Shown piece by piece: positions 3,891 to 19,072 of a DNA stretch of 43,192 nucleotides. The stretch is from a bacterium (GTDB lineage: Bacteria > Patescibacteriota > Microgenomatia > Curtissbacterales > GWA2-41-24). The notes under the pieces were generated by a model. That model searched no databases. It was given only the letters and a program-made list of their open reading frames with translations, and was not told the origin of the DNA. The stretch lies in assembly GCA_021813945.1 (NCBI GenBank), contig JAKAJD010000003.1:1-43192 (forward strand), in the 5' to 3' direction. A program made the position numbers and the translations under genes. The first letter of the stretch is position 1. Every line of letters starts with the position of its first letter.

Positions 3891-3925
3891 ATGTGACTAA
3901 TAGTCCGTAGACCAATAGTCCACTT
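3891..3925. promoter_or_regulatory. Tandem C-box operator pair
   Basis: ATGT-GACTAATAGTC-CGTA-GACCAATAGTC-CACTT: two GAC(T/C)-N3-AGTC boxes at 3895 and 3910 (15-bp spacing, central GT), just upstream of the XRE gene. Confidence 0.8.
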
Positions 3926-3945
3926 TAGCCCAATTATGGTTTAAA

Positions 3946-4164: not shown

Positions 4165-4207
4165 AATAATCACAAAAGTTCACCTTTATTCACTTTTTGA
4201 TACCTAA

Positions 4208-4621: not shown

Positions 4622-4769
4622 CAGCACAGATTTTTTGAATAATAAGCTGTTAGCCTCAAAATTGTTAACTTTCATTAACTTTTAACCCTAAAAAACCTGC
4701 TTTTGGATACCGTAAATTTGGCATACTTGTGCGGACCAACTACGCAAACCAGCACAAGATTTAGAGCTT

Positions 4770-5396: not shown

Positions 5397-5541
5397 GATT
5401 TGCGCTTGAGATAATATACCCTGAAATCTTCCGAAAGGTAAGATATCAAAAAAATCCGGGGGAAACCGAATTTGTTTGAAGGACGTTAGTCCTTTTAACA
5501 TTTAATCAATAAATCGGCATCCGGTCAAGGTGGTGATAAAA

Positions 5542-5775
5542 ATGCCAGGCAAGAATCAACATGTAGTTCCAGTAGGAAGTGATTGGGGTATTCGTGGAGA
5601 GGGCAATTCTAGACTTACTTCAGTTTTTGAAAATAAACAAGACGCATTAAAGGTAGGTAGGAAGATTGCAATCAACCAACAAGCAGAGCTTGTTATTCAC
5701 GGCCGAGATGGTCGGATCCAAGACAAGGATAGTTTTGGCCACGATCCAGTCCCGCCAAGAGATAAAAAACATTAA
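5542..5775 (+). CDS. DUF2188 family protein (start reassigned to ATG 5542)
   Basis: HVVP...WGIRGEG...F...QDA...ELVIHGRDGRIQ pattern. Confidence 0.85.
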   Translation: MPGKNQHVVPVGSDWGIRGEGNSRLTSVFENKQDALKVGRKIAINQQAELVIHGRDGRIQDKDSFGHDPVPPRDKKH

Positions 5776-5777
5776 AT

Positions 5778-7103
5778 ATGGATATTCTGACCAAGAAAAT
5801 AGAATCATTCGGTTTTGATGATATAGTGACTTTTTGCAAAGAAGGTCACCGAGAAGATTATCAAATTGATTACAAAAAAGATCTTCCTTCGAATGGTTTG
5901 GCAAAGCACTTCGCCGCTTTTTCGAATTCAAAAGGTGGTTTGATCCTAATTGGTGTTGAAGAAAATAGAATCACAGGTATTCCTATTAAGTGGGATGGTG
6001 TGAATAATGATGCGAAGTCGATTGAAAGGATACATCAGTGGGCTTCAAACGTGGAGCCTTTACCGAGAAGCACAGTTCATGTTACTGAAGAGAAAAACGG
6101 AAAGGTTTTTATATTGATTCGAATATTGGAGGGTGATCGAACACCATACTACGTTCAGAACGATTCAAATCTGTGGGTTAGGACTGGAAATATTAGTACT
6201 CCTATTGATCTTGCGTCCCCTGATTATGCAGAGTTGTTATTTAAGAGAAAAGAGCAGGCTGATATCAGCCGCAATATATTTATAAAACAGACAGCCGATG
6301 TTTATAACGCGGCTTTAAGAAGGGCAGAACGAGAACGTTTGGCGAAGATTGCGAAAGAGGCAGAAGATTACAAAAAGAAAAAAGAAGCGGGAGACCCTCA
6401 ACCCATAATAGATGCATTTGCTGGCGGCTTTCATTCCCACATTTATTCAAATAAACTTGGAAGCCAAGCCTCAATGTGTACTATCATTCTACAGCCATTT
6501 TTCCCAAAGGAGGCATTATTAAAGCCTTCTGAAATAAAAGATCGAATAGTTGAAATTAGAGATTTGCAGAGAACTCCCAGAATGTATTTTCCAGATTTAA
6601 ATGTGTGGCCAATACCTCAGGGAATTTTGCGTTTTGATTGGGGGGAAAGTGATGGACAAATTGACTGTCATCAGATTTACGCTTCTGGTTTGGTTTACTC
6701 TTCAACTGATGTTTTGATGGTAGACCATGAATCTAAGAAAAAACTAATTTACTTGTCTCACGTTTTAGGAAGACTATTTCAAGTTTTGAAGGCGGCTAGT
6801 AATTTTTATCAAATTGCCGGATACCAAGGTGGTGTGGAAGGATATCTGGAGCTGGCTAATACTGAGGATATTAGCTTGGTGGGGTTTCAGCATGAGCTTT
6901 TTAACAGAGATTTGCTGGGTTTAATGCCCAGCTACCAACTTAATTTTTCAGATTTAGATACTTCAAAATTAAGTGACCCTAAAGCTTTCCAGGAATTTTT
7001 CGAGAATTATGTTAAAGAATTTTTCTGGTCTATTGGAAAGCCTGACTTGCACGAGTCTCTAATTAAGAAATTTTTGCAAGATAATCAGTGGCTTGTCACG
7101 TAA
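5778..7103 (+). CDS. Schlafen/AlbA_2-domain protein with an unknown C-terminal domain
   Basis: E...IDYKK...KHFAAFSNSKGGLILIGVEE AlbA_2 signature in the first ~150 aa. Confidence 0.85.
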   Translation: MDILTKKIESFGFDDIVTFCKEGHREDYQIDYKKDLPSNGLAKHFAAFSNSKGGLILIGVEENRITGIPIKWDGVNNDAKSIERIHQWASNVEPLPRSTVHVTEEKNGKVFILIRILEGDRTPYYVQNDSNLWVRTGNISTPIDLASPDYAELLFKRKEQADISRNIFIKQTADVYNAALRRAERERLAKIAKEAEDYKKKKEAGDPQPIIDAFAGGFHSHIYSNKLGSQASMCTIILQPFFPKEALLKPSEIKDRIVEIRDLQRTPRMYFPDLNVWPIPQGILRFDWGESDGQIDCHQIYASGLVYSSTDVLMVDHESKKKLIYLSHVLGRLFQVLKAASNFYQIAGYQGGVEGYLELANTEDISLVGFQHELFNRDLLGLMPSYQLNFSDLDTSKLSDPKAFQEFFENYVKEFFWSIGKPDLHESLIKKFLQDNQWLVT

Positions 7104-8698
7104 CTGGTTCTAACGTTCTCTACTAGGCGGAGCCAAATAGGACGCTCAAGGTATAAATGACCTGTTTGGAGCGTATTGTCAGGCTTTTCTTTAGGTTCGA
7201 AAGTTTTATCTGTAATTTCTTCTTTATTCTGCACTTTCGAATTATTTGTTATTCGTACAGCTTCGGCAAGGAGTTCAAATGTCTTTGAGTATTCAATATT
7301 AAGCTTGCCTTCGTTAAGGGTAAGTTTTGAGAATACCAGGTTGATAAGGGCTCGTTTATCCTCTTCGCTCTTTGCTTTCTCGTATATCTGTCTGGCTCTT
7401 TGGGAAAGCTCGTAAATGTTAATCCCTAATTGGTAGTATTTACTACTTGCGTGGTTGTGCTTTTCCGCAGTTTGGGTGAGTTTATCCAACTCGTCATTCC
7501 ACTGCTTTGATAACCTGTTATACGCCTCTTCGGTGACTTTGCCATCCAGCTTATCAATGTATAACTTATCCAGTCGGTTTCTCAGTAATTCTTGTTTCTG
7601 ATTGAGCTCAGCAATAACAGATGTGTAATATGCAATTTGGTCTTTGTGACCTTCTTTCAAAGCTTTTCTTATCCACTCGACAATTCGGGTATTCTTAATT
7701 TCCAGCTTCTCAAACTCACCAACAATCTGCTTTTCAACTTCATCTTGTGTTACCCAACTCTTTTGTGAACAGTTTTTATAGTGATTACAGTGACCGTAAA
7801 TAATGCCTTTATGTATTTCCCAAGTAATCGTTCCATTGCATTCTTGGCAACGAAGCACCCCCTTAAATCTATAGCTATGTTTGGCGTATTTGGGAGTATT
7901 TTTACTTCTGAGTAGCGACTGTACTTTATAAAATACTTCCTCGGATAGTAATACTGGGTGATTTCCTTTATAGATTTCTCTGTTCCAGCACATCTTGCCA
8001 ATGTAAAACGGGTCACAAAGTAGTCTATGAATTCTGCTTTTAACCACTTTACTTCCACTATCGTTTCTTAAGCCTTCCTCATACATTTTGGTTGTGAGTT
8101 TCTTGAGCGAGTATTCACCGGACGAATACAGCTCAAACATTTTTCTAATGAATCCTGCTTTTTCTTCATCAATAATGTGCGTTTTGTGCCCTTTTTCTCC
8201 TATGGTTTTGTAGCCGATTGGCGGTTTAGTGGGTAGCCAACCTTGAGCAATTTTCTCCTTTTGCCCCTTCTTTACATTCTCCGACAGCAATCTGACATAG
8301 TATTCGGCAGTGGCTACCTTTACTCTCCACATAAACCACTCATGGGACTTTGAGTTTTTGTGTAATATGCAGCCTTCCTTAGCAAGATGAATCTGGTTGT
8401 TATCGTTCTCTAAAACCCACTTATCAATGGTTGGAACATCAGCGAAGTTACGAGTTAGGCGGTCTGTGGTTTCGACAATAACCACGGAAATTTTGAATTT
8501 ACGAATGTAAGCAGCCATCTCATTGAATACTTTTCTTTGAACACTTCCGCTTGCTGATTCTGAAACTGCAAATACTTTTTCAATAGTAAAGTTATTGCGT
8601 CCAGCATAATCCCGAAGGTACTTCTCTTGTGCGGGAAGGGAATAGCCCGTTTCCTCCTGCTCTTTACTCGATACTCTGCAAAATAAAACTGCTTTCAT
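7085..8698 (-). CDS. Large serine recombinase (Int2), currently with a chimeric C-terminal tail
   Basis: FCRVSS catalytic Ser, DRLTRN, recombinase domain, Zn ribbon CQEC...YGHCNHYKNC, coiled coil; reads through the att junction (W-L at 7135-7130). Confidence 0.95.
   Translation of the reverse strand: MKAVLFCRVSSKEQEETGYSLPAQEKYLRDYAGRNNFTIEKVFAVSESASGSVQRKVFNEMAAYIRKFKISVVIVETTDRLTRNFADVPTIDKWVLENDNNQIHLAKEGCILHKNSKSHEWFMWRVKVATAEYYVRLLSENVKKGQKEKIAQGWLPTKPPIGYKTIGEKGHKTHIIDEEKAGFIRKMFELYSSGEYSLKKLTTKMYEEGLRNDSGSKVVKSRIHRLLCDPFYIGKMCWNREIYKGNHPVLLSEEVFYKVQSLLRSKNTPKYAKHSYRFKGVLRCQECNGTITWEIHKGIIYGHCNHYKNCSQKSWVTQDEVEKQIVGEFEKLEIKNTRIVEWIRKALKEGHKDQIAYYTSVIAELNQKQELLRNRLDKLYIDKLDGKVTEEAYNRLSKQWNDELDKLTQTAEKHNHASSKYYQLGINIYELSQRARQIYEKAKSEEDKRALINLVFSKLTLNEGKLNIEYSKTFELLAEAVRITNNSKVQNKEEITDKTFEPKEKPDNTLQTGHLYLERPIWLRLVENVRTSYVTSH
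7129..7144 (+). other. Hybrid att junction: right end of element A and left end of element B
   Basis: GGAGCCA core; the arm GCCAAATAGGACG (7132-7144) is the inverted complement, 11/13, of CGTCCCACTTGGC (17669-17681). Confidence 0.8.
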
Positions 8699-8724
8699 AT
8701 TTTTATAGTTATTTTTAGTATATT

Positions 8725-8754
8725 GATACTATCAAGTAATGTCAACTAATATCA
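8725..8754 (+). promoter_or_regulatory. 10-bp tandem direct repeats upstream of int2
   Basis: GATACTATCA-AGTAATGTCA-ACTAATATCA; the same unit occurs at 12273-12292. Confidence 0.65.
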
Positions 8755-8958
8755 TAAATGTGAACCTATTTCCAATTCCGCCCATTGAGCCTTATCAATA
8801 ATTCTCCGCATAAGGGATGCCAAATGTTTTCTACACCTTACACATGGGGATGGGGCTTTCGTAGAAATATATTCATCAATCGCTTCTGTCAGAAGAATTA
8901 AATCTTGCCTATCTACCTCTAATTGATAATACCTCTTTTTATTGTTTATATTCTTCAT
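8752..8958 (-). CDS. Small hypothetical protein (CxxC)
   Basis: 68-aa ORF overlapping the upstream ATPase stop by 4 nt (ATGA). Confidence 0.6.
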   Translation of the reverse strand: MKNINNKKRYYQLEVDRQDLILLTEAIDEYISTKAPSPCVRCRKHLASLMRRIIDKAQWAELEIGSHL

Positions 8959-10250
8959 ATCGATTCACCCCCTGTGTCTGCTGACATTTCGGGTAAGGAC
9001 TCGTCTGACCCAAAAATCTCTTTGGCGGTTTCAACAATATCTTCGTGTGGTTTGGCATTACCAAGGAGTTCTCTTGTGGACTCTTTTATTCTCCACCTGT
9101 CTGCCACGCCTTGTCCTTGATGTTCTCTATCGATAAGTCCAAGCCCATTGAGGTCTTCCAATAATCTCCTGGTTGTGTTTGTGGGATAGCCGATTTTCGT
9201 TGCTATTTCTGCTGTAGTGAGATAGTCTTGCGTTTCAAGTAAAATTCCTATTGCTAATTTTCGCTTTATCGGTAAACAGTCAAAGCCAACTTTATATACC
9301 AGTTCATAGTCCTCATCAGCAAACTCACCATTACGCATTAAAGCCATTGCCGAGCATAAAGTGATGAGTTGTTTGGCAAGTCGAGTAGGAAGTTCAACAT
9401 CAGGTATTTGTTCAATCTCTCTCGTAGAATAACTTTCTCTAATAACGCCACTTCTTGCTCTGGTTACAAAACTTGCAAGATTAGCAATTCGGTCTATCAA
9501 CGATTCAGGAAGTGAGTAATTTGTCTCTGGGACGTTGATGCTTTCAATATAATCAGTAAAAGCAGTCTGAATTTCCGTTCTCATTGCCGTTTCACCTCCA
9601 CTATTTGCAATTGCTTTCTTGGCTACAGCTATGTAATCGGGTTGCAGGGGGCGGTATTGGATAAAACGCTCTCCTAATACCGTGTATATTTCGTGATGTC
9701 TATCAATAACGGTGGTGACACCAGCGATAAAGCCTATTTTGCCTTGCCACTCCTTTGTTTCTCCAGTTCCAAATTCTTTGCGATAGGTGCCGTCGAATAT
9801 TTCTCGTAGCTGCGAAATAATAACCTGCTGTTTATCACGGTGCATACTGAGCACTGTCGTGAAGTCTTTCAAGGTAAGAATTGTTCCGGTTGGTATACGC
9901 AATAATAAACTTGCGTTTTTGTTACCCTTTTCACCACTGAGGAAAGTTTGCGTTGTTAGGTCAGATAAAGCGTATATTTTCTCAATTTTGTTGAGTCCTC
10001 GAATAAGCTCTGTTTTTGTGGCTCCTGGCGGAGCGACGATAAACAACCACACAGGGTCGGCATTTAAACGGTTGGCGATAACAGTTGCAGCAAGCAATCG
10101 AAGAATACCCTTATCTTTTATTAACAGCCACTTATTCACGATACTTTCCAGTGTGTTAAAGTCTATCGGATGCCTGTCCTCAAGCAGGTTCTTTTCTATT
10201 TCTAAGAATTTTTGCTCTATTTTTTGCTCGTTAAATGAATAATTTGTCAT
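8955..10250 (-). CDS. AAA+/MCM-like ATPase with C-terminal wHTH, putative replicative helicase
   Basis: Walker A-like VAPPGATKTE, Walker B-like ILTLKDF, QLREIFDG, GFIAGVT, LGERF arginine-finger region, C-terminal TTAEIATKIGYPTNTTRRLLEDL HTH. Confidence 0.7.
   Translation of the reverse strand: MTNYSFNEQKIEQKFLEIEKNLLEDRHPIDFNTLESIVNKWLLIKDKGILRLLAATVIANRLNADPVWLFIVAPPGATKTELIRGLNKIEKIYALSDLTTQTFLSGEKGNKNASLLLRIPTGTILTLKDFTTVLSMHRDKQQVIISQLREIFDGTYRKEFGTGETKEWQGKIGFIAGVTTVIDRHHEIYTVLGERFIQYRPLQPDYIAVAKKAIANSGGETAMRTEIQTAFTDYIESINVPETNYSLPESLIDRIANLASFVTRARSGVIRESYSTREIEQIPDVELPTRLAKQLITLCSAMALMRNGEFADEDYELVYKVGFDCLPIKRKLAIGILLETQDYLTTAEIATKIGYPTNTTRRLLEDLNGLGLIDREHQGQGVADRWRIKESTRELLGNAKPHEDIVETAKEIFGSDESLPEMSADTGGESI
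8983..8996 (-). repeat. Element B dispersed motif TTACCCGAAATGTC, copy 1
   Basis: GACATTTCGGGTAA on the plus strand; exact match to the reverse complement of 17563-17576. Confidence 0.75.
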
Positions 10251-10882
10251 AGATTTCCATTGAGATAATTAACTGCTTCTTTGAATGAATAGTTGTGTAG
10301 TAACCGGACAAGATTGATAGAATTACCCCCTTGATTACACCCAAAACACCAACAGGTATTTGAATCAGGGTAAATAAAGAATGAAGGCGTATGTTCTTCG
10401 TGAAGTGGGCATAAACATACGATTCTGCTTCCGCTTCTGCGAAGCCTCACATCCTTACTGAGGAGTGTTTCGATAGGCACTTGAAGTGCTGAGGACATTT
10501 CGTCTTCACTCAATCTGTTTAATTTCTTTGCTTGCCTATTTTTACTAATCCAGAGGAGATGTTTCAGTCTTGAAATGTGGGTATCAACTTCAAATAGCTT
10601 CTGTCCCTCCGTTGCTTTTATCCATTCCCTCCAAAACCATTGCGTAAAGTCGTCTTTAATCTCTCTTTTAATATACGAAAGCTTATTTGCTATGGTTTGC
10701 ACTAACAAGACTCGGTCTACCTCGAATTCTGAGATTTTAACGGGGATAATTTCTTTTGCTTCAGGAAATATTGCCAATAGCTCTTTATCTGTATATTTAG
10801 GCTGGCTTTTTCGCCATTCTTTTTCCAGCTCAAAGGCATAGTCAAGATACTCATCGTCTATTACTAAGGTTTTATTATTCAT
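10247..10882 (-). CDS. Stand-alone CHC2 (DnaG-type) primase zinc-finger protein
   Basis: C-terminal CPLHEEHTPSF...WCFGCNQGGN; no TOPRIM domain; ATGA overlap with the ATPase gene. Confidence 0.85.
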   Translation of the reverse strand: MNNKTLVIDDEYLDYAFELEKEWRKSQPKYTDKELLAIFPEAKEIIPVKISEFEVDRVLLVQTIANKLSYIKREIKDDFTQWFWREWIKATEGQKLFEVDTHISRLKHLLWISKNRQAKKLNRLSEDEMSSALQVPIETLLSKDVRLRRSGSRIVCLCPLHEEHTPSFFIYPDSNTCWCFGCNQGGNSINLVRLLHNYSFKEAVNYLNGNL

Positions 10883-11018
10883 AGTTGATTTTTATTAGTA
10901 GTTCAAAAAACATAACCAGAGAATTTCCAATTTCAGATAGTTCGGATGGAGTTAAACTAACTCCGTAATCCTCTTCAATAATAGTCTTGAGCTCTTGTAA
11001 TAGTTGTTGACTAACCAT
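10875..11018 (-). CDS. 47-aa microprotein (not in ORF track)
   Basis: Manual translation: MVSQQLLQELKTIIEEDYGVSLTPSELSEIGNSLVMFFELLIKINYE*; overlaps the next start codon; similar to 2330-2473. Confidence 0.8.
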   Translation of the reverse strand: MVSQQLLQELKTIIEEDYGVSLTPSELSEIGNSLVMFFELLIKINYE

Positions 11019-11020
11019 AG

Positions 11021-11275
11021 CTATCTTTCTCCGTAAATCCTCCCTTTAATTACCTTGAGCTGGTTAAAGTAAGCCAAAGGCTCGACTCTGACCTCTCTTC
11101 GCCAAAAAGACTCAATAAGCTCATCGAGTTGTTCGTTGCGTTGGAACAGAAAACTAACTTTGTGAGGAGAGGTTCTGTCTATCGAATCAATAGGAAACCA
11201 AAGTGATATAGCAGTAGCCAACGGGAGACTTTGTGTGGAGTAAATAGTATCCAGTTTTATGTTTTCTTGGCTCAT
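11021..11275 (-). CDS. DUF5659-like small protein
   Basis: YSTQSLPLATAI...IDRTSPHKVSFLF...FWRREVRVEPLAYFNQLKVIKGRIY; paralog of 2475-2723. Confidence 0.78.
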   Translation of the reverse strand: MSQENIKLDTIYSTQSLPLATAISLWFPIDSIDRTSPHKVSFLFQRNEQLDELIESFWRREVRVEPLAYFNQLKVIKGRIYGER

Positions 11276-11355
11276 ACTTATGCAAATAAAAAAGCTCTGA
11301 ACTTTTACATCCAGAGCTTACCAAGTGAGCCTCTTGAAATTGTGACACTAATTTT

Positions 11356-12207
11356 TCATTTTTTGTGTAGTAGAAGTCTTGCTCGCTCTTTTAATCGTTG
11401 TTTTTGTTTACGCACGACTTGACTCCTTTTACCAGTATTATCATTAAATATTCTGGTTGCTAAGTCTGTCGAGGTAACCTTGTGGTGCTCTTCCTCACCC
11501 CCAAGCCCTCTTGCAAAATCGAACCGGTGTTCAATCTGTCCCATTTTTCTTGTTTTCAAAGCCGTATCAAGAGTGCGGAAACGCCTGCGTATATTTTTGC
11601 TTCTTTTTAGAATTTCTTTAAGCTCTCTATATGCCTGTCTAAACTTGGGTTTTGGTATTTGCGGGTTATTTCCGACTATTCCTTTAAAGCAGGCGAGAAT
11701 AAATTTTTTCTCTTGAGTGGTAAGCACAAACCTTTCTATTTCGTCAACGTGGTTTATTACTTGGTTAATAAGTTCGAAGTTATAGGAGGGAATATATGAT
11801 GGTTTGCCATAAAGTAGATAGTCTTGTACCCAATCGTAAAAATTCAGTGGCAATTTATACTCTTGTATAAGGTCAGTAATCGTTTTTTCAAGCATTTCCC
11901 GTTTCGCGGGTGGCAATGATTCTAGCCAGTCGTGTACTTCGATGTCTACGCTCCTGCCTTCGTACTCAATTTGTATGGTTTTAAAATCATGATTGGGGTT
12001 CAGACTGGGGATTTTAAATTGTGTTTGTATATCTCGGATTTCCGCGTTAAACTTCTTATCCCGTTTAAGATAAGTCGCAATCTCCTCATTTAGATTGCTT
12101 CGCACTCCAAAGAATTTTTCGGCTTCACGCCACAAACTTATTTGAATTAGAGTGCCAATGGGAGAAAGTTTCTTTAATGTATTGATGTGTTTTTTCTTTA
12201 ATCTCAT
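11356..12207 (-). CDS. Hypothetical protein with a basic C-terminus
   Basis: 283-aa ORF, first gene of the leftward backbone operon. Confidence 0.7.
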   Translation of the reverse strand: MRLKKKHINTLKKLSPIGTLIQISLWREAEKFFGVRSNLNEEIATYLKRDKKFNAEIRDIQTQFKIPSLNPNHDFKTIQIEYEGRSVDIEVHDWLESLPPAKREMLEKTITDLIQEYKLPLNFYDWVQDYLLYGKPSYIPSYNFELINQVINHVDEIERFVLTTQEKKFILACFKGIVGNNPQIPKPKFRQAYRELKEILKRSKNIRRRFRTLDTALKTRKMGQIEHRFDFARGLGGEEEHHKVTSTDLATRIFNDNTGKRSQVVRKQKQRLKERARLLLHKK

Positions 12208-12225
12208 TCTTATGTTTATACTTCG

Positions 12226-12242
12226 GTTTACCCGAAAAGTCG
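12226..12242 (+). repeat. Element B dispersed motif, copy 2
   Basis: GTTTACCCGAAAAGTCG, 16/17 identical to 17561-17577; in the divergent promoter region. Confidence 0.75.
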
Positions 12243-12272
12243 GTTAATTGATTTAGCCTGGTGATAGTGTAT

Positions 12273-12292
12273 ACTAATATCAAGTAATATCA
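12273..12292 (+). promoter_or_regulatory. 10-bp tandem direct repeats upstream of the excisionase-like gene
   Basis: ACTAATATCA-AGTAATATCA, ending 11 bp before ATG 12304; TATCAAGTAAT(A/G)TCAA is 15/16 identical to 8730-8745. Confidence 0.65.
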
Positions 12293-12303
12293 AAGAATAA
12301 TTT

Positions 12304-12489
12304 ATGAAAAAAGACAATAGCGAAGGTTTAATTAAGCTTAGCGAGGCATGTAAGATTCTGAATGTTCACCCCCAAACGCTCCGGCAGTGGGATAGAAAAG
12401 GGATTCTAAAAGCTGTGAGGTTTGGACAAAGAGGTGATAGGAGATATAGAAAGGAAGATATCTTAAAATTAATTGGCAAAAAAACTTAG
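12304..12489 (+). CDS. MerR-type HTH, excisionase/RDF-like
   Basis: LIKLSEACKILNVHPQTLRQWDRKG...GDRRYRKEDI. Confidence 0.9.
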   Translation: MKKDNSEGLIKLSEACKILNVHPQTLRQWDRKGILKAVRFGQRGDRRYRKEDILKLIGKKT

Positions 12490-12491
12490 TT

Positions 12492-12908
12492 ATGAATCTA
12501 AATATTAAGGAATTCTTGTCGTCAAGCCTTGTAGATGCAGTAAAAAGGCTTGGCATAGTTGGGACGATTTCTTATGTAGGAGCTGCCACTGTTTTCGTTG
12601 TTCTCCTTTTGGTCAATTTTAATGCGGAACCTGTAAAAGCTGGCGTGTTGTTAAGCATAGGCGTTGCCTTGTTAATGTACTCAGGAGCAATCTATTGGTC
12701 TGAAACAAAACAAGAAACCGAGAAAATGAAGGAGGCTTTAGGAGTTCTGCGTGAGGTATATAACCGTATGGCCGAACAAATATCAACAGCAGATAAAGAT
12801 AAAACCGTTTCAATAACCATGACTATTGATAACCTGCCAGATAAAATTGCAGAGGTTATTAAGAAGACTTCAATTCAAGGAAAAGAAAGTCATGAAACAA
12901 AAAAATAA
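12492..12908 (+). CDS. Two-TM membrane protein with coiled-coil tail
   Basis: Two hydrophobic segments followed by a charged helical region. Confidence 0.7.
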   Translation: MNLNIKEFLSSSLVDAVKRLGIVGTISYVGAATVFVVLLLVNFNAEPVKAGVLLSIGVALLMYSGAIYWSETKQETEKMKEALGVLREVYNRMAEQISTADKDKTVSITMTIDNLPDKIAEVIKKTSIQGKESHETKK

Positions 12909-13635
12909 ATTTGCATTAGTTACAGGAGCATCCACAGGCATCGGTAGAGCAATTGCTATTGAATTAGCAAAATCAGGTGTTTATGTTGGATTGGTTGCTC
13001 GAACTGAGGATAGACTAAAAATAACTAAAAAATTAATTGAACAAGGAGGTGGTCAAGTTGAAATCTTCATTGCTGATTTGAGCAGAGTTGAGTCGATAAA
13101 TAACTTAATTTTTCAAGTTAAAAACAAAACGAAAAAGATTAGTATTTTAATAAACGTTGCTGGAATATGGCATGGAGACGATGAGGTATTTGCGGATAAA
13201 GATTTTGATACCTTTTCCCAGAAAGTAATTCTTGATACTTATCATGTTGGCATGATTGCCCCTACCTTACTTGCTCACGCTCTCATACCCTTAATGCTAA
13301 GGGGTAGCAGAATAATAAACATTTCAGGTACTTTTGAAAGTGGTGCTAAGGGATGGCTACCTTACTTTGTATCAAAGAAAGCAATAGAAGACTTGACCAT
13401 CGGTTTGGCTGAGGAGTTGAAAGACAAAGGCATAACAGCCAATGCTATTTCTCCTTCTGATACTGCTACGGAAGCCTACAAAAAGTATTTTCCTCAGTAT
13501 ATGGCAGAGGCTATTGAACCAGAAGAAATCGCCAAATTTGCAGTATATTTGTGCTCACCTCAGGCAAGTGACATTTCGGGTAAAGTGTTTGTGTTGAAAA
13601 AGGGCAAACAACCTTTTGAGGGATATCATACTTAA
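12892..13635 (+). CDS. Short-chain dehydrogenase/reductase (start reassigned to ATG 12892)
   Basis: TGASTGIG glycine-rich motif, NVAG, YFVSK catalytic YxxxK. Confidence 0.92.
   Translation: MKQKNKFALVTGASTGIGRAIAIELAKSGVYVGLVARTEDRLKITKKLIEQGGGQVEIFIADLSRVESINNLIFQVKNKTKKISILINVAGIWHGDDEVFADKDFDTFSQKVILDTYHVGMIAPTLLAHALIPLMLRGSRIINISGTFESGAKGWLPYFVSKKAIEDLTIGLAEELKDKGITANAISPSDTATEAYKKYFPQYMAEAIEPEEIAKFAVYLCSPQASDISGKVFVLKKGKQPFEGYHT
13570..13584 (-). repeat. Element B dispersed motif, copy 3 (inside the SDR gene)
   Basis: GACATTTCGGGTAAA, a 15-bp exact match to the reverse complement of 17562-17576. Confidence 0.7.
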
Positions 13636-13653
13636 GAAAATAAAAAAAGCATT

Positions 13654-14121
13654 ATGGCAAGTAGAGATAGAGATGAAGATAAACTTCGCAAAAGGCTTGT
13701 TTCAGCATTAAGAGAAATCTTAACAAAGAATGACCCCGAACTTTTAGTTGAAGAAGTACACGGCGTTGGGGAGCATGGATTAGATATTATTTTTCTCGCT
13801 CGTGATTACTCCGGAGAAAAACATTGCTTCGGAATACAAGTAAAAGCAGTTAATATTTCCTGTCAGGGACACCCTACGAAGGATGTTAAAGAGATAATAG
13901 GGCAACTTACTATCGCAACAGGTTACGATTATAAATTCCAAGCAGATAATACCTATGAGTTTAGTGGCTTTTATGTTGTGACAGACAAAGAAGTTTCCGA
14001 AGTAGCAAAAAAGTATATCTCGTCGGCATTCAAACACGGAAAGCCAATTTACTATTTGTACGGCTCAAGATTGGAGAAGTTTCTACTAGACAACGAAAAT
14101 AAAAACATAACAAAACCATGA
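13654..14121 (+). CDS. Mrr-like PD-(D/E)xK restriction endonuclease-fold protein
   Basis: GEHGLDII...FGIQVK motif (D...QxK), FYVVT strand; 155 aa, stand-alone. Confidence 0.8.
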   Translation: MASRDRDEDKLRKRLVSALREILTKNDPELLVEEVHGVGEHGLDIIFLARDYSGEKHCFGIQVKAVNISCQGHPTKDVKEIIGQLTIATGYDYKFQADNTYEFSGFYVVTDKEVSEVAKKYISSAFKHGKPIYYLYGSRLEKFLLDNENKNITKP

Positions 14122-16295
14122 AAATAAAATTTGAATTTAAAGACGACAAGAGTAACCCTACGGAACAAGTAAAAGCATTCATCGCATACTGGCTGGAAGA
14201 ACATGGTATCAGAGATGAGGTAAAAGTATTATCCCCAGAAAAAATTTTGGGTAAAGGAGCAGACTATTTTGTTATAAATTCTGGACTTCTAATTGAAGCG
14301 ACCCAGTTGATTGACAATGAAGATTTAGCTAGGAGTGCTAAGTGGGCTATTACGGTAAATACTCTAAGCAAATTAATTAAAGAAGATAGCAGATTTTCTT
14401 CGATTAAAGGATTGCATTCTATTTCTACACCAGAAAACTTCGGTCTTAAAGCATCGCAACTAAAAAACGAGTCTGTATTAAATACAAAGATAAGTAAGGC
14501 TGTTGACGACATAATTAAAGCAATTTTGTCTAAAAGACCAGAAGTGGATGTATTTGGATATAAACTAAGAGTTGAAAAAGTTAACGAGGTTGACGATGGT
14601 ATTTATTTCTCAACCATAGGAAGAGCGAGGTCTATTAGTGTAGCAGGAATTTTCCATGAGAATTTGAGGAAAAAATTTGACAAGGCCAATACACAGCTTG
14701 GGATAGAAGAAATTGATGGAGCCAAGGTTAAGAGCAGAGTGCTTCTAATTGTAAATAAATATCGTTTGCTAACTTTCGATTGGGATTTATTTGAGGGACT
14801 CAGTTATTCATATAAAGAGCTAGTCGAGAAATACAGCAACATCAGCGAGATTTGGTTTCAAGCTGAAGACGGGGAAGGTAAATATCAGCATAAGTTGCTT
14901 TACAGAAAGGCTATCTTTACGCAGTTTGAAAACATGGATTTCTCAAATATGAACAGCCAAGATTACGAGGTCTTCGCAAAGTGGTTTTCAGCGCTTGAGA
15001 AATTAGATGATAATAAAAAACAAATCTTAATCGAGGCTCTTAAAATTCTATTAAAAAGACACTCACCTCATAAAATCTTTCCTGACCCCCAGACGAGAAT
15101 TGAAATGGTAAGGTATGGAAGATGGCTTGCCGAGAACAACAAAAGGAATGACGCAAACTGGCTGATAAAGCAATTTCTTAACGACCCTGACCCAAGCGAC
15201 CCCCCAACTGGGGACAAAAAAGATTATGGTAATGAGTTGCATGAAAGCATTAAGAAAGCAACTAAATCTGATATACATGCGATACATACTGTAAAAGGTC
15301 ATTTGGCATGGACTGTTCAATTGCTATCACTAAAAAAAGATTTTCTTCTCAAAGAGTCTTATGGTTATACACAAGGGGTGCTAAGAAGTACTAAGCACTT
15401 ATATTTAATCCTTCAGTGGATATTCCCACTAATCGAAATATCTAATAGACGATTCTGGTTAAAGGAACTCGATGAAAAACTTTATGAAGATTTTAGGAAG
15501 CTATGCTTTGAGCTTCTTGAGTCTTATTCAAAATATCCTGATATAGCAAAAGGGTTAGTTCATGTTTTTCATTACTTCAAGGAATTAACCACAGAGGAGA
15601 CTAAAGAAGTACTAAATAAACTTGAGAAAGCCGATGATTATGAAACGTTACTTCTTTATTTTGCAATATACAGAGAAAAGCACTTCAAAGAGGAAAAATA
15701 CAATAAAGAGATTAGAGATTACAATCCTACATATGCAAAGAAAAAACTTGAAGAGACGATATTAAATGACGATAACGGACTTCTCAATCTGCGTTCGGGA
15801 ATAGCTTGGAATATTTGGAAGATACTATCAGAGGATGAAAAAGAGCTTGAAACCCTTATCCCATTAATAGACAGTTTTTTAACAAGCCCTTACGATGGTC
15901 ATCTTTTTCACAATTTTGAGAGAATTGTTGAGGAGTATATTGATAAATTCCCAGAGAAAAGTATCACATGGTTTATACAAATAATTAAAGCTGCGAAACT
16001 GTATTTAGACAAAAAACCTGACGAAGGCAGAAACGTGTGGTTAAGCACCGAAATAGGAAAAGTATTAAGGAAAACAGCAGAGAAAAAACCCGAGCAACTG
16101 CTGGTACTAATAGAACTTCTATATGAAATGTGGATGAAAGGAGCGTTCGTGGGAACTATATCAGAGATTTTTACTTCGTATAAATTTATTGATAACAAAG
16201 AGCTTAGATTACAACTGGAAGGTAAGTTCAAGGAAATTTACTTTCGAATGAAAAAAGTGAATGAGAAACTTGAAAACGTAGATTGGTCTGAGTAA
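14118..16295 (+). CDS. 725-aa protein: possible N-terminal nuclease-like domain plus long alpha-helical C-terminus
   Basis: GADYF-x6-IEAT near the N-terminus resembles a PD-(D/E)xK-type centre; the C-terminal ~450 aa looks helical-repeat-like; ATGA overlap with the upstream nuclease gene. Confidence 0.7.
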   Translation: MKIKFEFKDDKSNPTEQVKAFIAYWLEEHGIRDEVKVLSPEKILGKGADYFVINSGLLIEATQLIDNEDLARSAKWAITVNTLSKLIKEDSRFSSIKGLHSISTPENFGLKASQLKNESVLNTKISKAVDDIIKAILSKRPEVDVFGYKLRVEKVNEVDDGIYFSTIGRARSISVAGIFHENLRKKFDKANTQLGIEEIDGAKVKSRVLLIVNKYRLLTFDWDLFEGLSYSYKELVEKYSNISEIWFQAEDGEGKYQHKLLYRKAIFTQFENMDFSNMNSQDYEVFAKWFSALEKLDDNKKQILIEALKILLKRHSPHKIFPDPQTRIEMVRYGRWLAENNKRNDANWLIKQFLNDPDPSDPPTGDKKDYGNELHESIKKATKSDIHAIHTVKGHLAWTVQLLSLKKDFLLKESYGYTQGVLRSTKHLYLILQWIFPLIEISNRRFWLKELDEKLYEDFRKLCFELLESYSKYPDIAKGLVHVFHYFKELTTEETKEVLNKLEKADDYETLLLYFAIYREKHFKEEKYNKEIRDYNPTYAKKKLEETILNDDNGLLNLRSGIAWNIWKILSEDEKELETLIPLIDSFLTSPYDGHLFHNFERIVEEYIDKFPEKSITWFIQIIKAAKLYLDKKPDEGRNVWLSTEIGKVLRKTAEKKPEQLLVLIELLYEMWMKGAFVGTISEIFTSYKFIDNKELRLQLEGKFKEIYFRMKKVNEKLENVDWSE

Positions 16296-16303
16296 TTATC
16301 GAC

Positions 16304-16317
16304 TTTACCTAAATGTC
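16304..16317 (+). repeat. Element B dispersed motif, degenerate copy 4
   Basis: TTTACCTAAATGTC versus TTTACCCGAAATGTC. Confidence 0.45.
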
Positions 16318-16325
16318 AGAGGGGA

Positions 16326-16535
16326 TTATTTTTCAAACAATTGAGCTAATTCTATTTCAAGAGCACGAGCAATCTTAGTGAGAGTTTTTAGGGTTGGATT
16401 TCTTTTTCCACTTTCTATATCCACAATCGAACGAGCTTCGATTTTTGTAAGCTCCGCTAATTTTTCCTGAGTCATATCCTTCTCTTTCCGTAACCTTTTT
16501 ATCCGTTCGCCTACTTTTTTGTAAGTCCCAATCAT
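16326..16535 (-). CDS. XRE-family HTH regulator
   Basis: GERIKRLRKEKDMTQEKLAE...IESGKRNPTLKTL. Confidence 0.9.
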   Translation of the reverse strand: MIGTYKKVGERIKRLRKEKDMTQEKLAELTKIEARSIVDIESGKRNPTLKTLTKIARALEIELAQLFEK

Positions 16536-16549
16536 ATTGACTAAAGTGT

Positions 16550-16615
16550 GAAATATATGTAAGATTTAAACCAGGAAATATATTTCGGATTTTTATTAAA
16601 ATAGACTGAAATATA
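16550..16615. promoter_or_regulatory. Candidate XRE operators (GAAATATA x3)
   Basis: GAAATATA at 16550, 16575 and 16608; 16575-16586 is the perfect palindrome GAAATATATTTC; lies in the divergent promoter region. Confidence 0.55.
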
Positions 16616-16676
16616 GGCATAAAAAGAATAAAAAATACTTTGGATTAAACAACCAAAAGATTAATAAAAACTACTT

Positions 16677-17027
16677 ATGAATAGAACTTTTAGCGGTACA
16701 CGATTTTTAAAACTATTTCAAATAATTTCAGCCTCATCCATTCTAATTGCTGTGTTAGCTCTTTTAGCTTCTAAATATTCTCTCCCCGTGGCATTTAGTA
16801 GTTATGAAAGAAAGCAACAATATTGTTATGACAAATACTGGAATGTAAGTATGCCAACGTACGCTTCCTGTTTTAGAAGGGAAGCAGACTACTGGTCTTT
16901 CTGGATTCAAGTAGAAGAAAAATCTCCTAGAATTCTTGTAGCTGTATTAGGTATCAATTTACTTGGATTTGGCTTATACAGATTTTTGTTTCCGCGTAGC
17001 CATAGAAGTCTGCATGCTGAAGCATAA
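16677..17027 (+). CDS. Small membrane protein with a Cys pair
   Basis: TM - loop (YCYD...ASCF) - TM. Confidence 0.6.
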   Translation: MNRTFSGTRFLKLFQIISASSILIAVLALLASKYSLPVAFSSYERKQQYCYDKYWNVSMPTYASCFRREADYWSFWIQVEEKSPRILVAVLGINLLGFGLYRFLFPRSHRSLHAEA

Positions 17028-17028
17028 T

Positions 17029-17208
17029 ATGATTAACTTAATTTACCGCATTCTCTATCTTTATACATTCGCATTTGCGTATTTTATTTCCATCGCCTTG
17101 CTGTATGAAACAGTATTTAACGGATGGAAACCATGGGGGCTGACGCTGTTATTGCCGGTTGATTTGTTCCTGATTCTCGTTTTTATCAACCGCCGGAAAA
17201 AAGCATGA
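17029..17208 (+). CDS. 59-aa two-TM protein (start reassigned to ATG 17029)
   Basis: Hydrophobic, basic C-terminus; starts 1 nt after the previous stop. Confidence 0.5.
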   Translation: MINLIYRILYLYTFAFAYFISIALLYETVFNGWKPWGLTLLLPVDLFLILVFINRRKKA

Positions 17209-17560
17209 TAAGTAATGATTACAGTCATACTACTGTAGTAATACAGTAATACTTATAGTGTGTGGTACGACACATTAAACACATAAAAATATGCTGCAAA
17301 GTGTGTAAGTAATTAACCCCCGTATTTCCAAATAGCCTCAAAAATAGATGTTTTTCGTGATACCCCCATTGATACTCACTGTTACTTTTATGTATACATG
17401 TATATGTGCTGCATGATACTTTATGATGATTTTTGTGATGACAAGTTATGACTTTATGATGTCTTGTTTTACCTGCGGTGTGCGGATATTGACCTGAAGG
17501 TTGAACAGGTTTGAGCAACTTGAAGTAGTAGTACCCTCCCTCGTCAAATTATGAAACTGA

Positions 17561-17577
17561 GTTTACCCGAAATGTCG
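17561..17577 (+). repeat. Element B dispersed motif, copy 5
   Basis: GTTTACCCGAAATGTCG, about 105 bp inside the right end. Confidence 0.75.
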
Positions 17578-17582
17578 AAAGA

Positions 17583-17687
17583 CTAATAGGTAGATAAGAA
17601 GTATTGTGATTGTTTAAGCGTAAGCTCAGGATATTCAACCTCCTCTGACCAATTCACTCGTCTAAATTCGTCCCACTTGGCGAGCCA
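17583..17687 (-). other. Orphan recombinase C-terminal coding segment
   Basis: Translates WLAKWDEFRRVNWSEEVEYPELTLKQSQYFLSTY*; in-frame stop three codons upstream (17694-17696) and no start; in phase with both LSRs across the GAGC core. Confidence 0.8.
17669..17687 (+). other. attR of the tandem array
   Basis: CGTCCCACTTGGC-GA-GCCA; joining the tRNA at GA restores ...CCGGGGAG-CCA. Confidence 0.85.
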
Positions 17688-17763
17688 TTCGACTCACCCT
17701 GTTCGCTCATGGCTATAGCCGCTAACTACTTGAGTCGAATGTCTTGAGTGAGTCATGAGCGAA
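17686..17763. repeat. Interleaved inverted repeats (REP-like) upstream of the GIY-YIG gene
   Basis: CATTCGACTCA(17686-96)/TGAGTCGAATG(17731-41); TTCGCTCATG(17702-11)/CATGAGCGAA(17754-63); palindrome GGCTATAGCC(17711-20). Confidence 0.8.
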
Positions 17764-17768
17764 GGCGA

Positions 17769-18053
17769 ATGACGAATCGAAAGACATACTATTTTTACAT
17801 TCTCCGCTGCGCTGACAATTCACTTTATTGTGGGATGAGTTCTAATTTAGAAAACCGACTTAAAGAACACAACTCCAACGGCTCAAAAGGAGCTAAATAT
17901 TTGAGAGGTAAAAAGCCGGTTAAATTTGTACACACGGAAAAATTTCAAGATATTAAATCAGCTATGAATAGGGAGTTGCAAGTTAAGAGGTGGACTAAAG
18001 CTAAAAAGGAGGCTTTGATAGCCGGAAATTTTGAATTGTTAAAAAAGTTATAA
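17769..18053 (+). CDS. Stand-alone GIY-YIG nuclease (UPF0213-like)
   Basis: YFYIL...LYCG, RLKEH, A...E..VK.W...KK..LI. Confidence 0.9.
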   Translation: MTNRKTYYFYILRCADNSLYCGMSSNLENRLKEHNSNGSKGAKYLRGKKPVKFVHTEKFQDIKSAMNRELQVKRWTKAKKEALIAGNFELLKKL

Positions 18054-18159
18054 ATTGAAAAATTGTAATCGGAAATTTATATTAAGGATACCTACCTGCT
18101 TGCCAAAATTGATTAAAGGAGTCAGTTTTGTAGTCAATAAAGCGCGGTAGAAGAGAACA

Positions 18160-19072
18160 ATGAAATCTATTTTGATAAAGCCACCATCATCTCCGCTAGT
18201 GACAGTAATCCTCCGCTGTCTAGGAATTGGAGTAATCTACGCTGTGACCAACGCACTAGTAGCGGTTTTGCTGGGACAAATGACCCGTCTCGCCCCGACC
18301 TGGGAAACGCCCTTATCTGGACCCTAACCGGCACTATTATCGCTTTATCCTTGAGTCCTTTTATTCGTCACTCTTTCTGGTCGCGAAACAAAACTATTCT
18401 TGCAGTGTGGACACTTTTAACGTTTGTCCGTGCAATCGGATTGGGAATTGAAGGCGCTCTTTTCAAGCCTACCACCGCGACTAACCAATTCGTTAGTGCA
18501 ATCACTGGTACTCTTGTCCTTCTATGGATTGCCTGGGTCGCCGTCCGTTTGCTCGCTCCAAATACTCTAGCAAAGAGTGTGGACGGAATAAGATTTCCCA
18601 GTTCGATTAAAGCCTGGTGGGAATGGATTTTGCGAGTAATAGTTGGCAGTCTATCTTACCTTGTTTTCTACTTTGTGTTTGGAGCTGCGAACGCTTTCCT
18701 GTACACCCTTTTGTGTTTGGAGCTGCGAACGCTTTCCTGTACACCCTGAGTTTTTACAAGGACAATCCACAGTACGGATTCAGTCTTCCGCCTGTTGGAA
18801 TAATCTTTATCGCACTACTAATACGCGGTCCTCTCATGGTTCTTGGTGCTGCTCTCCTTGCCCAGTCTGTGTCGGTATCGCGTCGCCAGCTTGCGGTCTG
18901 GTTGGGTCTGCTCCTGTTCGTTGTGGATGGGCTTGCCGCCTATGTTGAGGGGACCTTCCGCACAATGCCGTTGGGCTTTAATATGGCAACACTCGCCGAG
19001 CTTTTCTTCCAGAACTTTCTAACCGGTGTGGTCGTCGCCTACTTGTTTGGCAATCAGTCCCAGAGGGGCTGA
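18160..19072 (+). pseudogene. Multi-pass membrane protein gene with two frameshifts
   Basis: Hydrophobic coding in three consecutive frames: ATG 18160 frame to ~18295, the 18351-18749 frame, then the 18617-19072 frame after a 38-bp duplication; repaired length about 291 aa. Confidence 0.7.
18672..18747 (+). repeat. Perfect 38-bp tandem duplication
   Basis: TTTGTGTTTGGAGCTGCGAACGCTTTCCTGTACACCCT at 18672-18709 and 18710-18747. Confidence 0.95.

What the first reader, a model, noticed from the sequence alone, without database searches (positions are those of the whole stretch)
8983..17577. A 14-17 bp motif, TTTACCCGAAA(T/A)GTC, dispersed five times across element B only
Seen: copies at 8983-8996 (minus, encoding LPEM at the ATPase C-terminus), 12226-12242 (plus, divergent promoter), 13570-13584 (minus, inside the SDR cargo gene), 16304-16317 (plus, degenerate) and 17561-17577 (plus, near attR). 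Exact 14-15 bp matches in both orientations within 10 kb are unlikely by chance, and I found no full copy outside B by eye. The spacing does not fit iterons, CRISPR or terminators. Inference: binding sites for a B-encoded protein that mark the whole element (partition- or packaging-like loading, cassette-capture recombination sites, or self-recognition for the nuclease cargo).
Basis: partly seen in the sequence, partly recalled or inferred. Interest (0 to 1): 0.62.

Follow-up and report, generated by a model that had tools for sequence, protein, structure and literature searches.

The report
Helicase recognition sites marking a mobile island
The repeated 15-base motif is real and belongs to a whole family of small integrating islands, where it is most likely the DNA site read by the island's own replication helicase; this is a new layout of a known kind of replication control, not a new kind of system.

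Summary
The motif is real. All five lie in island B; there are none in about 51 kb of surrounding host DNA.

The motif is a family signature: 99 near-exact copies occur in 1.26 Mb of related islands, against about 0.8 expected. The copies sit at fixed places: the last codons of the helicase gene, the divergent control region, inside the serine-integrase gene, and beside the attachment site. About 89% point the same way as local transcription.

The ATPase is an MCM-like helicase with a C-terminal winged-helix domain. Distant helicase clades carry their own motif variant, which changes together with the recognition helix. In one clade two facing copies flank an AT-rich spacer right behind the helicase gene, which is a classic origin layout. 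The motif persists in islands that lack the MerR-like gene, the XRE gene or this integrase type.

Best reading (about 0.5): these are the helicase's own origin and operator sites, as in SaPI Rep-ori and SCCmec Cch2-ori. The dispersal and the polarity resemble mycobacteriophage stoperators and remain unexplained. No binding data exist.

The parts
8977..8999 (-). Tail site. The motif core is at 8983-8997, written into the last codons of the helicase gene (reads S-L-P-E-M-S), 24 nt before the ATG of the next small ORF.
   Evidence: 27.6 bits. The same position and reading frame recur in 40 tail sites of 43 distinct helicase genes. The proline codon is CCC at 39 of 40 sites (TCC, serine, at the other), against 20% elsewhere in these genes, while the first codon varies non-synonymously. 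The tail is predicted to be disordered (pLDDT below 50 for residues 403-431).
12225..12247 (+). Control-region site between the divergent operons. It lies 6 nt upstream of a predicted -35 box (TTGATT) for the MerR-like gene, and at about +18 to +32 of the predicted leftward transcript of the replication operon, 20 nt from that operon's first ATG.
   Evidence: 27.5 bits. A site in the same intergenic position and orientation occurs in relatives. In four subfamilies it is an inverted pair (L009, L011, L047, L053).
13564..13586 (-). Cargo site, embedded antisense in the 3' end of the SDR gene (the + strand encodes DISGK). It is one of the minority of copies that oppose local transcription.
   Evidence: 26.5 bits. 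It is unique to this island and was not found in the related SDR of L006. Its role is unexplained.
17560..17582 (+). Distal site about 105 nt inside the right attachment site. In the excised circle it would lie 6 nt beyond the stop codon of the recombinase ORF, convergent with that ORF.
   Evidence: 31.9 bits. Relatives have a site at the same distance, about 85 nt, from the conserved ...GCGAGCCA block. The block 17561-17687 is about 70% identical to L007 and L039.
7673..7695 (-). Site inside the serine-recombinase gene, co-directional with it (AAT ACC CGA ATT GTC GAG = N-T-R-I-V-E).
   Evidence: 22.4 bits. The codons ACC CGA are invariant in 9 homologous recombinase genes (45-100% protein identity) while the flanking codons vary synonymously. 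A second recombinase subclade carries a site at a different internal position.
16304..16317 (+). It is probably not a member of the motif family.
   Evidence: It scores 8.2 bits, a level at which 0.85 matches per window are expected by chance.
8955..10250 (-). 431-aa MCM-like AAA+ helicase with a C-terminal winged-helix domain (about residues 333-390, roughly nt 9081-9254) and a disordered tail. It is the proposed reader of the motif.
   Evidence: The full-length model has pLDDT 82.6, and its best fold matches are MCM2-7 subunits. The isolated domain model has pLDDT 92.6 and best matches ArsR/MarR-type DNA-binding winged helices, including a MepR-DNA complex. The recognition helix YPTNTTRR is nearly invariant in the clade that carries this motif.
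10247..10882 (-). 211-aa protein with a CHC2 primase zinc finger, just upstream of the helicase gene. In many relatives it is replaced by a PrimPol domain fused to the helicase.
   Evidence: Pfam PF01807, E = 3.8e-20. Homologues carry PF09250 and PF08708 fusions.
7085..8698 (-). Large serine recombinase of island B. Its ORF crosses the attachment site.
   Evidence: Pfam Resolvase, Recombinase and Zn_ribbon_recom. The shared GAGCCA crossover lies at 7130 and 17682; read across the excised circle, the ORF has 555 codons and its stop falls at 17583-17585.
12304..12489 (+). 61-aa MerR/HTH_17 excisionase-like protein, the first gene of the cargo-side operon. It is not needed for the motif to be present.
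   Evidence: Pfam. It is absent from the motif-bearing relatives L042, L045 and L053, where restriction-modification cargo starts directly at the control region.

Best explanation
The motif is the cognate DNA site of the island's own replication protein. That protein is an MCM-like helicase whose C-terminal winged-helix domain reads a 14-17 bp asymmetric sequence, (A/G)(C/G)(C/T)TTACCCGAAA(T/A)GTC(G/A)G. As with the self-loading Rep helicases of staphylococcal pathogenicity islands and the Cch2 helicase of SCCmec, binding would mark where the helicase assembles on the excised island (origin function). The copy in the 5' leader of the replication operon would give negative autoregulation. In this clade the sites are few and long. 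They are written into coding DNA (the helicase's own disordered tail and the integrase gene) and spread over both arms of the island, pointing away from the central control region. Shown here: the motif is real; it is specific to the family; its positions are conserved; selection acts on the DNA rather than on the peptide; it is linked to, and changes with, the helicase clade; and one related clade has an origin-like layout. Inferred, not shown: that the winged helix is the binder, that binding starts replication, and what the dispersed, polar copies do.
For: 1. Family signature. There are 99 sites with one mismatch or fewer in 1.26 Mb of loci found through the helicase, against about 0.8 expected.
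2. Unbiased scan. A 19-mer scan of 185,579 species genomes gave 16 loci. Only the three that encode this helicase hold more than one copy; the 13 singletons match the chance expectation of about 17.
3. Position in the helicase gene. A site sits in or just behind the 3' end of the helicase gene in nearly every relative down to about 40% identity. It is always in the same frame, and codon use shows nucleotide-level selection.
4. Change in step with the helicase. Recognition helix YPTNTTRR goes with TACCCGAAAWGTC, YPTTTARR with TTCCCGCAACGTCGG, and YPYSTxYK or xSxAAVRR with TTTCCGAAAAGTCGG. All copies within one element share that element's variant.
5. Origin-like layout. In the Omnitrophota-type clade two facing copies flank an AT-rich spacer immediately after the helicase stop codon (L022: 70% AT against 53% for the locus). 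This is the SaPI origin layout described in PMC9371898.
6. Exclusion of other binders. The motif persists without the MerR-like gene, without any XRE-like gene, with other recombinase types or none, and with CHC2 replaced by PrimPol. Neighbouring island A has DUF5659 and a recombinase but no helicase, and it has no motif.
7. Fold. The protein has an MCM-like AAA+ core and a confident winged helix of the ArsR/MarR DNA-binding type.
8. Precedent. SCCmec Cch2 binds iterons between the helicase gene and the serine-recombinase gene through its C-terminal domain (PMC7581432). The tail site here is in the same position.
Against: There is no binding or replication data. The match between motif variants and helices follows clade boundaries, so shared descent could produce it without contact. 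Most loci were collected through the helicase. In this island's own clade there is no iteron cluster and no facing pair around an AT-rich spacer behind the helicase gene; there are only one or two direct copies inside the coding tail. The site is 14-17 bp long, against 5-6 bp for SaPI and SCC iterons. An origin role does not predict the strong co-orientation with transcription (70 of 79 sites), nor the copies inside the integrase gene, beside attP and antisense in the cargo SDR. Eukaryotic and archaeal MCM winged helices are not sequence-specific origin readers. The full host genome could not be scanned.
Confidence: 0.5

Rival explanations
1. Stoperator-like silencing by a separate repressor. 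The asymmetric sites would be orientation-dependent roadblocks and operators bound by a dedicated island repressor, not the helicase. This repressor would keep the integrated island transcriptionally quiet, as the L5/cluster-A mycobacteriophage repressor does at its 13-bp sites.
For: The site is asymmetric. Site density is about 1 per 2 kb. One copy lies at the main divergent promoter, and others lie between co-directional genes, at gene ends and inside long genes. 70 of 79 non-redundant sites are co-oriented with local transcription. These are the features described for stoperators in PMC9283540. Two recombinase subclades each have an internal co-directional site at a different position, which fits gating of integrase expression.
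Against: No candidate repressor is conserved with the motif. MerR-like and XRE-like genes are missing from many motif-bearing elements with complete arms, and the first gene of the replication operon is mosaic. The motif variants track the helicase clade, and the sites lie in or around the helicase gene even in distant clades. The polarity could equally be a property of helicase-bound sites.
Confidence: 0.17
2. The motif is read by something outside the island, for example a helper-phage transcription factor or RNA polymerase (a satellite switched on by a helper phage), or a host factor.
For: The motif is co-directional with genes, lies 12-70 nt upstream of many start codons and is followed by a purine-rich GGA/GGG stretch, which is promoter-like. 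One relative has a small terminase-like ORF before its integrase (L045), which hints at a satellite lifestyle.
Against: The 19-mer has no match in 2.9 million viral contigs, and a 17-mer gives only 7 single-copy hits, which is chance level. The same motif occurs in islands binned to several different phyla, which is hard to reconcile with one host or helper factor. Copies inside genes, antisense copies and the copy beyond the last gene do not fit a promoter. There are no copies in about 51 kb of host DNA.
Confidence: 0.08
3. The motif acts as RNA: a short element in the island's mRNAs that serves as a translational operator or a processing site.
For: 89% of copies would be transcribed in the sense direction. 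The tail copies lie 5-25 nt before the next start codon. The control-region copies can extend to a 6-4-6 palindrome, ACCCGA-AATG-TCGGGT.
Against: In the window the control-region copy lies upstream of the predicted -35 box. About 30% of copies (the GTCAGA type) cannot form the hairpin. When the left arm changes in other clades (CCGA to CCGC), the right arm does not compensate. Antisense and terminal copies are also conserved.
Confidence: 0.06
4. Recombination sites: cassette-exchange or inversion sites, or accessory sites for the serine recombinase.
For: Copies occur in both orientations. Blocks conserved at about 70% identity between this island and L006 or L007 end at motif copies. One copy lies about 105 nt from the attachment site, and two copies form a 21-nt inverted pair (I3).
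Against: The motif is the same whether the recombinase is of this type, of island A's type, or absent. None of the five true breakpoints between pairs at least 85% identical lies within 700 nt of a copy. Contigs from four metagenome runs show no inversion or deletion joints at the copies. Large serine recombinases need no accessory sites (established knowledge).
Confidence: 0.05

Closest known systems
SaPI/PICI pri-rep-ori module (self-loading Rep helicases of Staphylococcus aureus pathogenicity islands; PMC9371898)
   Same: Both are small integrating islands. The primase is upstream of, or fused to, an initiator-helicase (SF3 or MCM-like SF6). A C-terminal winged-helix domain reads island-specific repeats. 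The cis sites lie at the 3' end of the helicase gene. In one related clade here, facing sites flank an AT-rich spacer.
   Different: Here the site is 14-17 bp and asymmetric, not a 5-6 bp iteron. There are one or two copies at the helicase end instead of 6-12, and they lie inside the coding tail rather than downstream of it. Further copies are spread over the island with a strong polarity. The integrase is a serine rather than a tyrosine recombinase. Binding is untested.
SCCmec Cch/Cch2 helicase and its putative origin between cch2 and ccrC (PMC7581432)
   Same: The element is mobilised by a large serine recombinase and encodes a primase plus a Cch-type helicase; the Cch/Cch2 group is described as MCM-like. 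The helicase C-terminal domain binds direct repeats that lie between the helicase gene and the recombinase gene, which is where the tail site sits here.
   Different: SCCmec uses three AAGTG iterons in an intergenic region, with no copies elsewhere reported. Sequence similarity to Cch or Cch2 was not tested here.
Operators and stoperators of cluster-A mycobacteriophages such as L5 (PMC9283540)
   Same: Both use an asymmetric site of similar length (13 bp there). The sites are dispersed at about 1 per 2 kb, at promoters, in short intergenic gaps and in genes, and their orientation correlates with the direction of transcription.
   Different: Those sites are bound by a dedicated two-domain immunity repressor in a 50-kb phage. 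Here no such repressor is conserved with the motif, and the sites track a replication helicase.
Phage lambda ori inside gene O, and phage P4 alpha protein with ori and crr (from established knowledge, not checked in a paper here)
   Same: In lambda, initiator-binding repeats are written into the initiator's own coding sequence. In P4, a primase-helicase with a C-terminal DNA-binding domain uses binding sites at two separated places.
   Different: The protein families and the repeat sequences and numbers differ. These are analogies only.

Membership tests
SaPI/SCC-type self-loading initiator-helicase with cognate origin | Hexameric AAA+ helicase core of SF3 or MCM-like (SF6) type | tested here: met
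   The AlphaFold model has pLDDT 82.6. Its top 50 Foldseek matches are almost all MCM2-7 or archaeal MCM subunits, with E-values down to 5e-8.
SaPI/SCC-type self-loading initiator-helicase with cognate origin | C-terminal winged-helix DNA-binding domain | tested here: met
   Pfam finds weak IclR/DeoR HTH matches at residues 333-382. The domain model has pLDDT 92.6 and best matches ArsR/MarR winged helices, including a MepR-DNA complex.
SaPI/SCC-type self-loading initiator-helicase with cognate origin | Primase encoded upstream of, or fused to, the helicase | tested here: inconclusive
   In the window only a CHC2 primase zinc-finger protein lies upstream, and no catalytic primase domain was found. 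Many homologues carry a fused PrimPol plus PriCT_1.
SaPI/SCC-type self-loading initiator-helicase with cognate origin | Cluster of short iterons immediately downstream of the helicase gene, in two opposed sets around an AT-rich region | tested here: not met
   In the window there is one 15-bp site inside the coding tail, with no cluster and no facing partner nearby. Close relatives have one or two direct copies 69 bp apart. The feature is met only in a distant clade (L020, L022, L115, L116, L093).
SaPI/SCC-type self-loading initiator-helicase with cognate origin | The helicase binds its own origin specifically, and that origin supports replication | not testable with these tools
   Only indirect evidence is available: the helicase and motif are always linked and change together.
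Cluster-A mycobacteriophage operator/stoperator system | Asymmetric site, many dispersed copies, orientation tied to the direction of transcription | tested here: met
   There are five sites in 10.6 kb. Across the family, 70 of 79 non-redundant sites are co-oriented with local genes.
Cluster-A mycobacteriophage operator/stoperator system | A dedicated immunity repressor encoded by every element that has the sites | tested here: inconclusive
   XRE-like and MerR-like genes are absent from many motif-bearing elements. Homology to the L5 repressor itself was not searched.
Cluster-A mycobacteriophage operator/stoperator system | Orientation-dependent block of transcription elongation | not testable with these tools
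   No RNA data are available; metatranscriptomes from the same study hold nothing from this locus.
Cassette or shufflon-type recombination sites | Sites coincide with rearrangement or cargo-exchange end points and depend on one recombinase family | tested here: not met
   The breakpoints between closely related elements lie 749 nt or more from any copy. The motif is independent of recombinase type. No joints appear at the copies in four runs.

The most novel reading that the evidence does not exclude
A replicative MCM-like helicase could double as the island's global, orientation-dependent transcriptional gatekeeper. Its long asymmetric sites are written into its own disordered tail, into the integrase gene, beside attP and at the cargo promoter. 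Bound there, they would act both as loading sites and as stoperator-like roadblocks. A single protein would then couple replication, integrase expression and cargo (defence-gene) expression in a family of islands spread across Patescibacteria, Omnitrophota and other uncultured lineages.
Probability: 0.15. Interest if true: 0.75.

Novelty: new variant of a known kind. Interest (0 to 1): 0.5.

Why it matters
Almost nothing is known experimentally about how mobile elements of candidate-phyla-radiation bacteria replicate or are controlled. This finding defines a testable pair: a roughly 120-residue winged-helix tail and a 15-17 bp site. Natural specificity variants, with three or four matched helix and site versions, allow a clean specificity-swap experiment. 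If the helicase is the binder, the family extends the SaPI/SCCmec self-loading-helicase principle to uncultured phyla. It would also show an unusual site layout: few, long, polar sites embedded in coding DNA. The motif is in addition a practical marker for finding these defence-carrying islands and their control regions in metagenomes.

Tried and rejected
- **Searches that found nothing:** a single-protein search of species genomes found no close relatives. tblastn against deposited phage genomes found nothing. A PDB sequence search gave only insignificant winged-helix hits.
- **MerR-like excisionase as binder:** rejected. The gene is missing from motif-bearing L042, L045 and L053. A different 10-bp tandem repeat sits at its promoter.
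- **XRE as binder:** rejected. It is absent from most complete relatives.
- **First gene of the replication operon (p283-like) as binder:** rejected. It has no Pfam family, and its relatives share only patchy, mosaic similarity.
- **DUF5659 and CHC2 as binders:** rejected. DUF5659 is present in island A, which has no motif, and is absent from the distant clades that do have a motif variant. CHC2 is replaced by PrimPol in many relatives.
- **LPEMS as a conserved peptide signal:** rejected on codon evidence, and because the variant motif encodes an unrelated peptide, FPQRR, in another clade.
- **The conserved block next to the distal copy as a tRNA-derived attachment core:** rejected. It is the coding sequence for the recombinase tail as read in the excised circle.
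- **LexA box:** considered and dropped. There is no copy upstream of the lexA gene in the window.
- **Distant viral relatives of the helicase (44% identity or less):** they show no comparable motif.
- **RNA evidence:** none is available.


Full report
**Observation**

A search for TTTACCCGAAAWGTC with up to two mismatches finds four matches in the window: 8983-8997(-), 12227-12241(+), 13570-13584(-) and 17562-17576(+). None of 100 shuffles gave as many.

A weight matrix built only from related elements scores these four at 26-32 bits. It also finds a fifth strong site inside the recombinase gene, at 7673-7695(-). All five lie in island B. The rest of the window has no site at this strength, and a further 19 kb or so of host DNA reached by walking along the source contig has none with one mismatch or fewer.

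**Setting**

Island B runs from about 7130 to 17687. On the minus strand it carries:
- a large serine recombinase;
- a 68-aa ORF;
- the ATPase;
- a CHC2 primase zinc-finger protein;
- a DUF5659 protein;
- a 283-aa protein.

On the plus strand it carries:
- a MerR/HTH_17 excisionase-like gene;
- cargo genes: a 138-aa protein, the SDR, a 155-aa protein and a 725-aa protein.

An XRE gene lies on the minus strand further right.

The ATPase model has MCM subunits as its best fold matches. It ends in a confident winged helix of the ArsR/MarR DNA-binding type, followed by a disordered tail. Homologues are abundant in metagenomes, and many are fused to a PrimPol primase. The host is a Patescibacteria-like organism from mine drainage with a contig of about 1 Mb.

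**The motif is a family signature**

I fetched 110 related loci through the helicase, from species genomes and metagenomes. They hold 99 sites with one mismatch or fewer in 1.26 Mb. About 0.8 are expected (the expectation is my calculation from 82 admissible 14-mers). The extended consensus is (A/G)(C/G)(C/T)TTACCCGAAA(T/A)GTC(G/A)G.

In loci whose helicase is at least 47% identical to the window's, the sites recur at fixed places:
- **Helicase tail.** The site is always in the frame that reads L-P-E-M/K-S, typically 8 codons before the stop. A second direct copy often lies 69 bp upstream.
- **Divergent control region.** The site points to the cargo side. In four subfamilies it is an inverted pair.
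- **Inside the recombinase gene.**
- **Beside the attachment site**, about 85 nt inside a conserved ...GCGAGCCA block at the far end of the cargo arm.

An unbiased scan of 185,579 species genomes for a 19-mer version returned 16 loci. Only the three that encode this helicase had more than one copy, and the 13 singletons match the chance expectation of about 17. The same 19-mer has no match in 2.9 million viral contigs.

**DNA, not peptide**

Forty tail sites were found in 43 distinct helicase genes. The proline codon is CCC at 39 of them (TCC, serine, at the other), against 20% CCC elsewhere in these genes. Glutamate is GAA in 36 of 38 sites that encode it. The first codon, meanwhile, varies among Leu, Val, Ile, Ser, Thr and Ala. 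In another clade the variant site in the same place encodes FPQRR.

Inside the recombinase gene, the codons ACC CGA are invariant in nine homologues that otherwise show synonymous change around them. Selection therefore acts on the nucleotides.

**Who reads it**

The motif persists in elements that:
- have no MerR-like gene, with restriction-modification cargo starting directly at the control region;
- have no XRE-like gene;
- carry a recombinase of island A's type, or none;
- have PrimPol in place of the CHC2 protein.

The first gene of the replication operon is mosaic and has no known family. Island A in the same window has DUF5659 and a recombinase but no helicase, and it has no motif.

The helicase is the only constant partner. 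Its recognition helix YPTNTTRR is nearly invariant wherever the motif is TACCCGAAAWGTC. More distant helicase clades carry their own versions:
- YPTTTARR goes with TTCCCGCAACGTCGG;
- YPYSTxYK and xSxAAVRR go with TTTCCGAAAAGTCGG;
- YPLTPTRR goes with CACCCGAAACGTCGG.

All copies within one element share that element's version, and they lie in or around the primase-helicase gene. In the Omnitrophota-type clade two facing copies flank an AT-rich spacer immediately behind the helicase stop codon. This is the layout of SaPI origins, where a Rep helicase reads iterons through a C-terminal winged helix (PMC9371898). It also parallels the SCCmec origin between the cch2 helicase gene and the ccrC recombinase gene (PMC7581432).

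**What does not fit a plain origin**

- In the window's own clade there is no iteron cluster.
- The sites are long and asymmetric.
- 70 of 79 non-redundant sites point the same way as local transcription.
- In the window, the control-region site lies 6 nt upstream of a predicted -35 box for the cargo-side operon. It also lies inside the predicted leader of the replication operon.
- The tail site lies 24 nt before the next ORF.
- Joining the two island ends shows that, in the excised circle, the recombinase ORF runs across the attachment site to a stop at 17583-17585, 6 nt from the distal site. That site therefore marks the boundary between the cargo arm and the integrase gene.

This pattern resembles the operators and stoperators of cluster-A mycobacteriophages, where an asymmetric 13-bp site blocks transcription in one orientation (PMC9283540). 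A combined role is possible but untested.

**Other readings**

- **Cassette-exchange or inversion sites.** Not supported. True breakpoints between closely related elements lie 749 nt or more from any copy, and contigs from four metagenome runs show no joints at the copies.
- **An RNA hairpin.** Not supported. Many copies cannot pair, and arm changes are not compensated.
- **A helper-phage or host factor.** This has no support from the viral scans and fits poorly with the spread of the islands across phyla.

**Verdict**

The best reading, at about even odds, is that these are the cognate sites of the island's MCM-like helicase. That makes this a new layout of the known Rep-ori principle. The reason for the dispersal and polarity remains open.

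Noticed in passing
window 1-7130 versus 7130-18700: In four metagenome runs, the contigs covering island A (about 130-6800) have roughly half the word depth of island B and of the host flanks (for example 9-10 against 17.6 and 18.6 in X1). Several different sequences follow position 129/130, just after the tRNA-Asn gene. The population therefore seems to be mixed for island A, while nearly all cells carry island B.
   Followed up: partly
window 7130-7135 and 17682-17687; 17583-17585: The recombinase ORF of island B crosses the attachment site at a shared GAGCCA. In the integrated state it ends ...IWLRLVENVRTSYVTSH (537 aa). Read across the excised circle it would end ...IWLAKWDEFRRVNWSEEVEYPELTLKQSQYFLSTY (555 codons to the stop). 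The WLAxWDxFR tail is conserved in relatives, so integration swaps the enzyme's C-terminal tail.
   Followed up: partly
window 8727-8754 and 12265-12299: A different repeat, with 10-bp tandem units of the type TAATATCAAG, overlaps the predicted promoter of the recombinase gene (TTGACA-17-TATACT, 11 of 12 matches) and the overlapping divergent promoters of the control region. It is a second candidate operator set, perhaps for the MerR-like excisionase.
   Followed up: no
window 18672-18747: A perfect 38-bp tandem duplication lies inside an ORF of the host flank (18617-19072). All four metagenome runs break their contigs here (18701/18718).
   Followed up: no
L042:4757-7222, L053:3173-5668, L045:3387-4577: In relatives, the slot next to the control-region site holds defence cargo: fused type IIG-like restriction-modification enzymes of 821-831 aa, or a methylase-Mrr fusion. 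In the window the same slot holds the SDR, the 155-aa protein and the 725-aa protein. This is consistent with a swappable defence-gene slot.
   Followed up: partly
L045:9740-9940: A 66-aa ORF just upstream of the recombinase gene matches the small terminase subunit family (PF03592, E = 8.9e-8). This hints that some members of the family are phage satellites.
   Followed up: no
window 13570-13584: The cargo copy is a perfect 15-mer lying antisense inside a typical SDR C-terminal motif (ASDISGK). Why a site should sit there, against the general polarity, is unexplained.
   Followed up: partly
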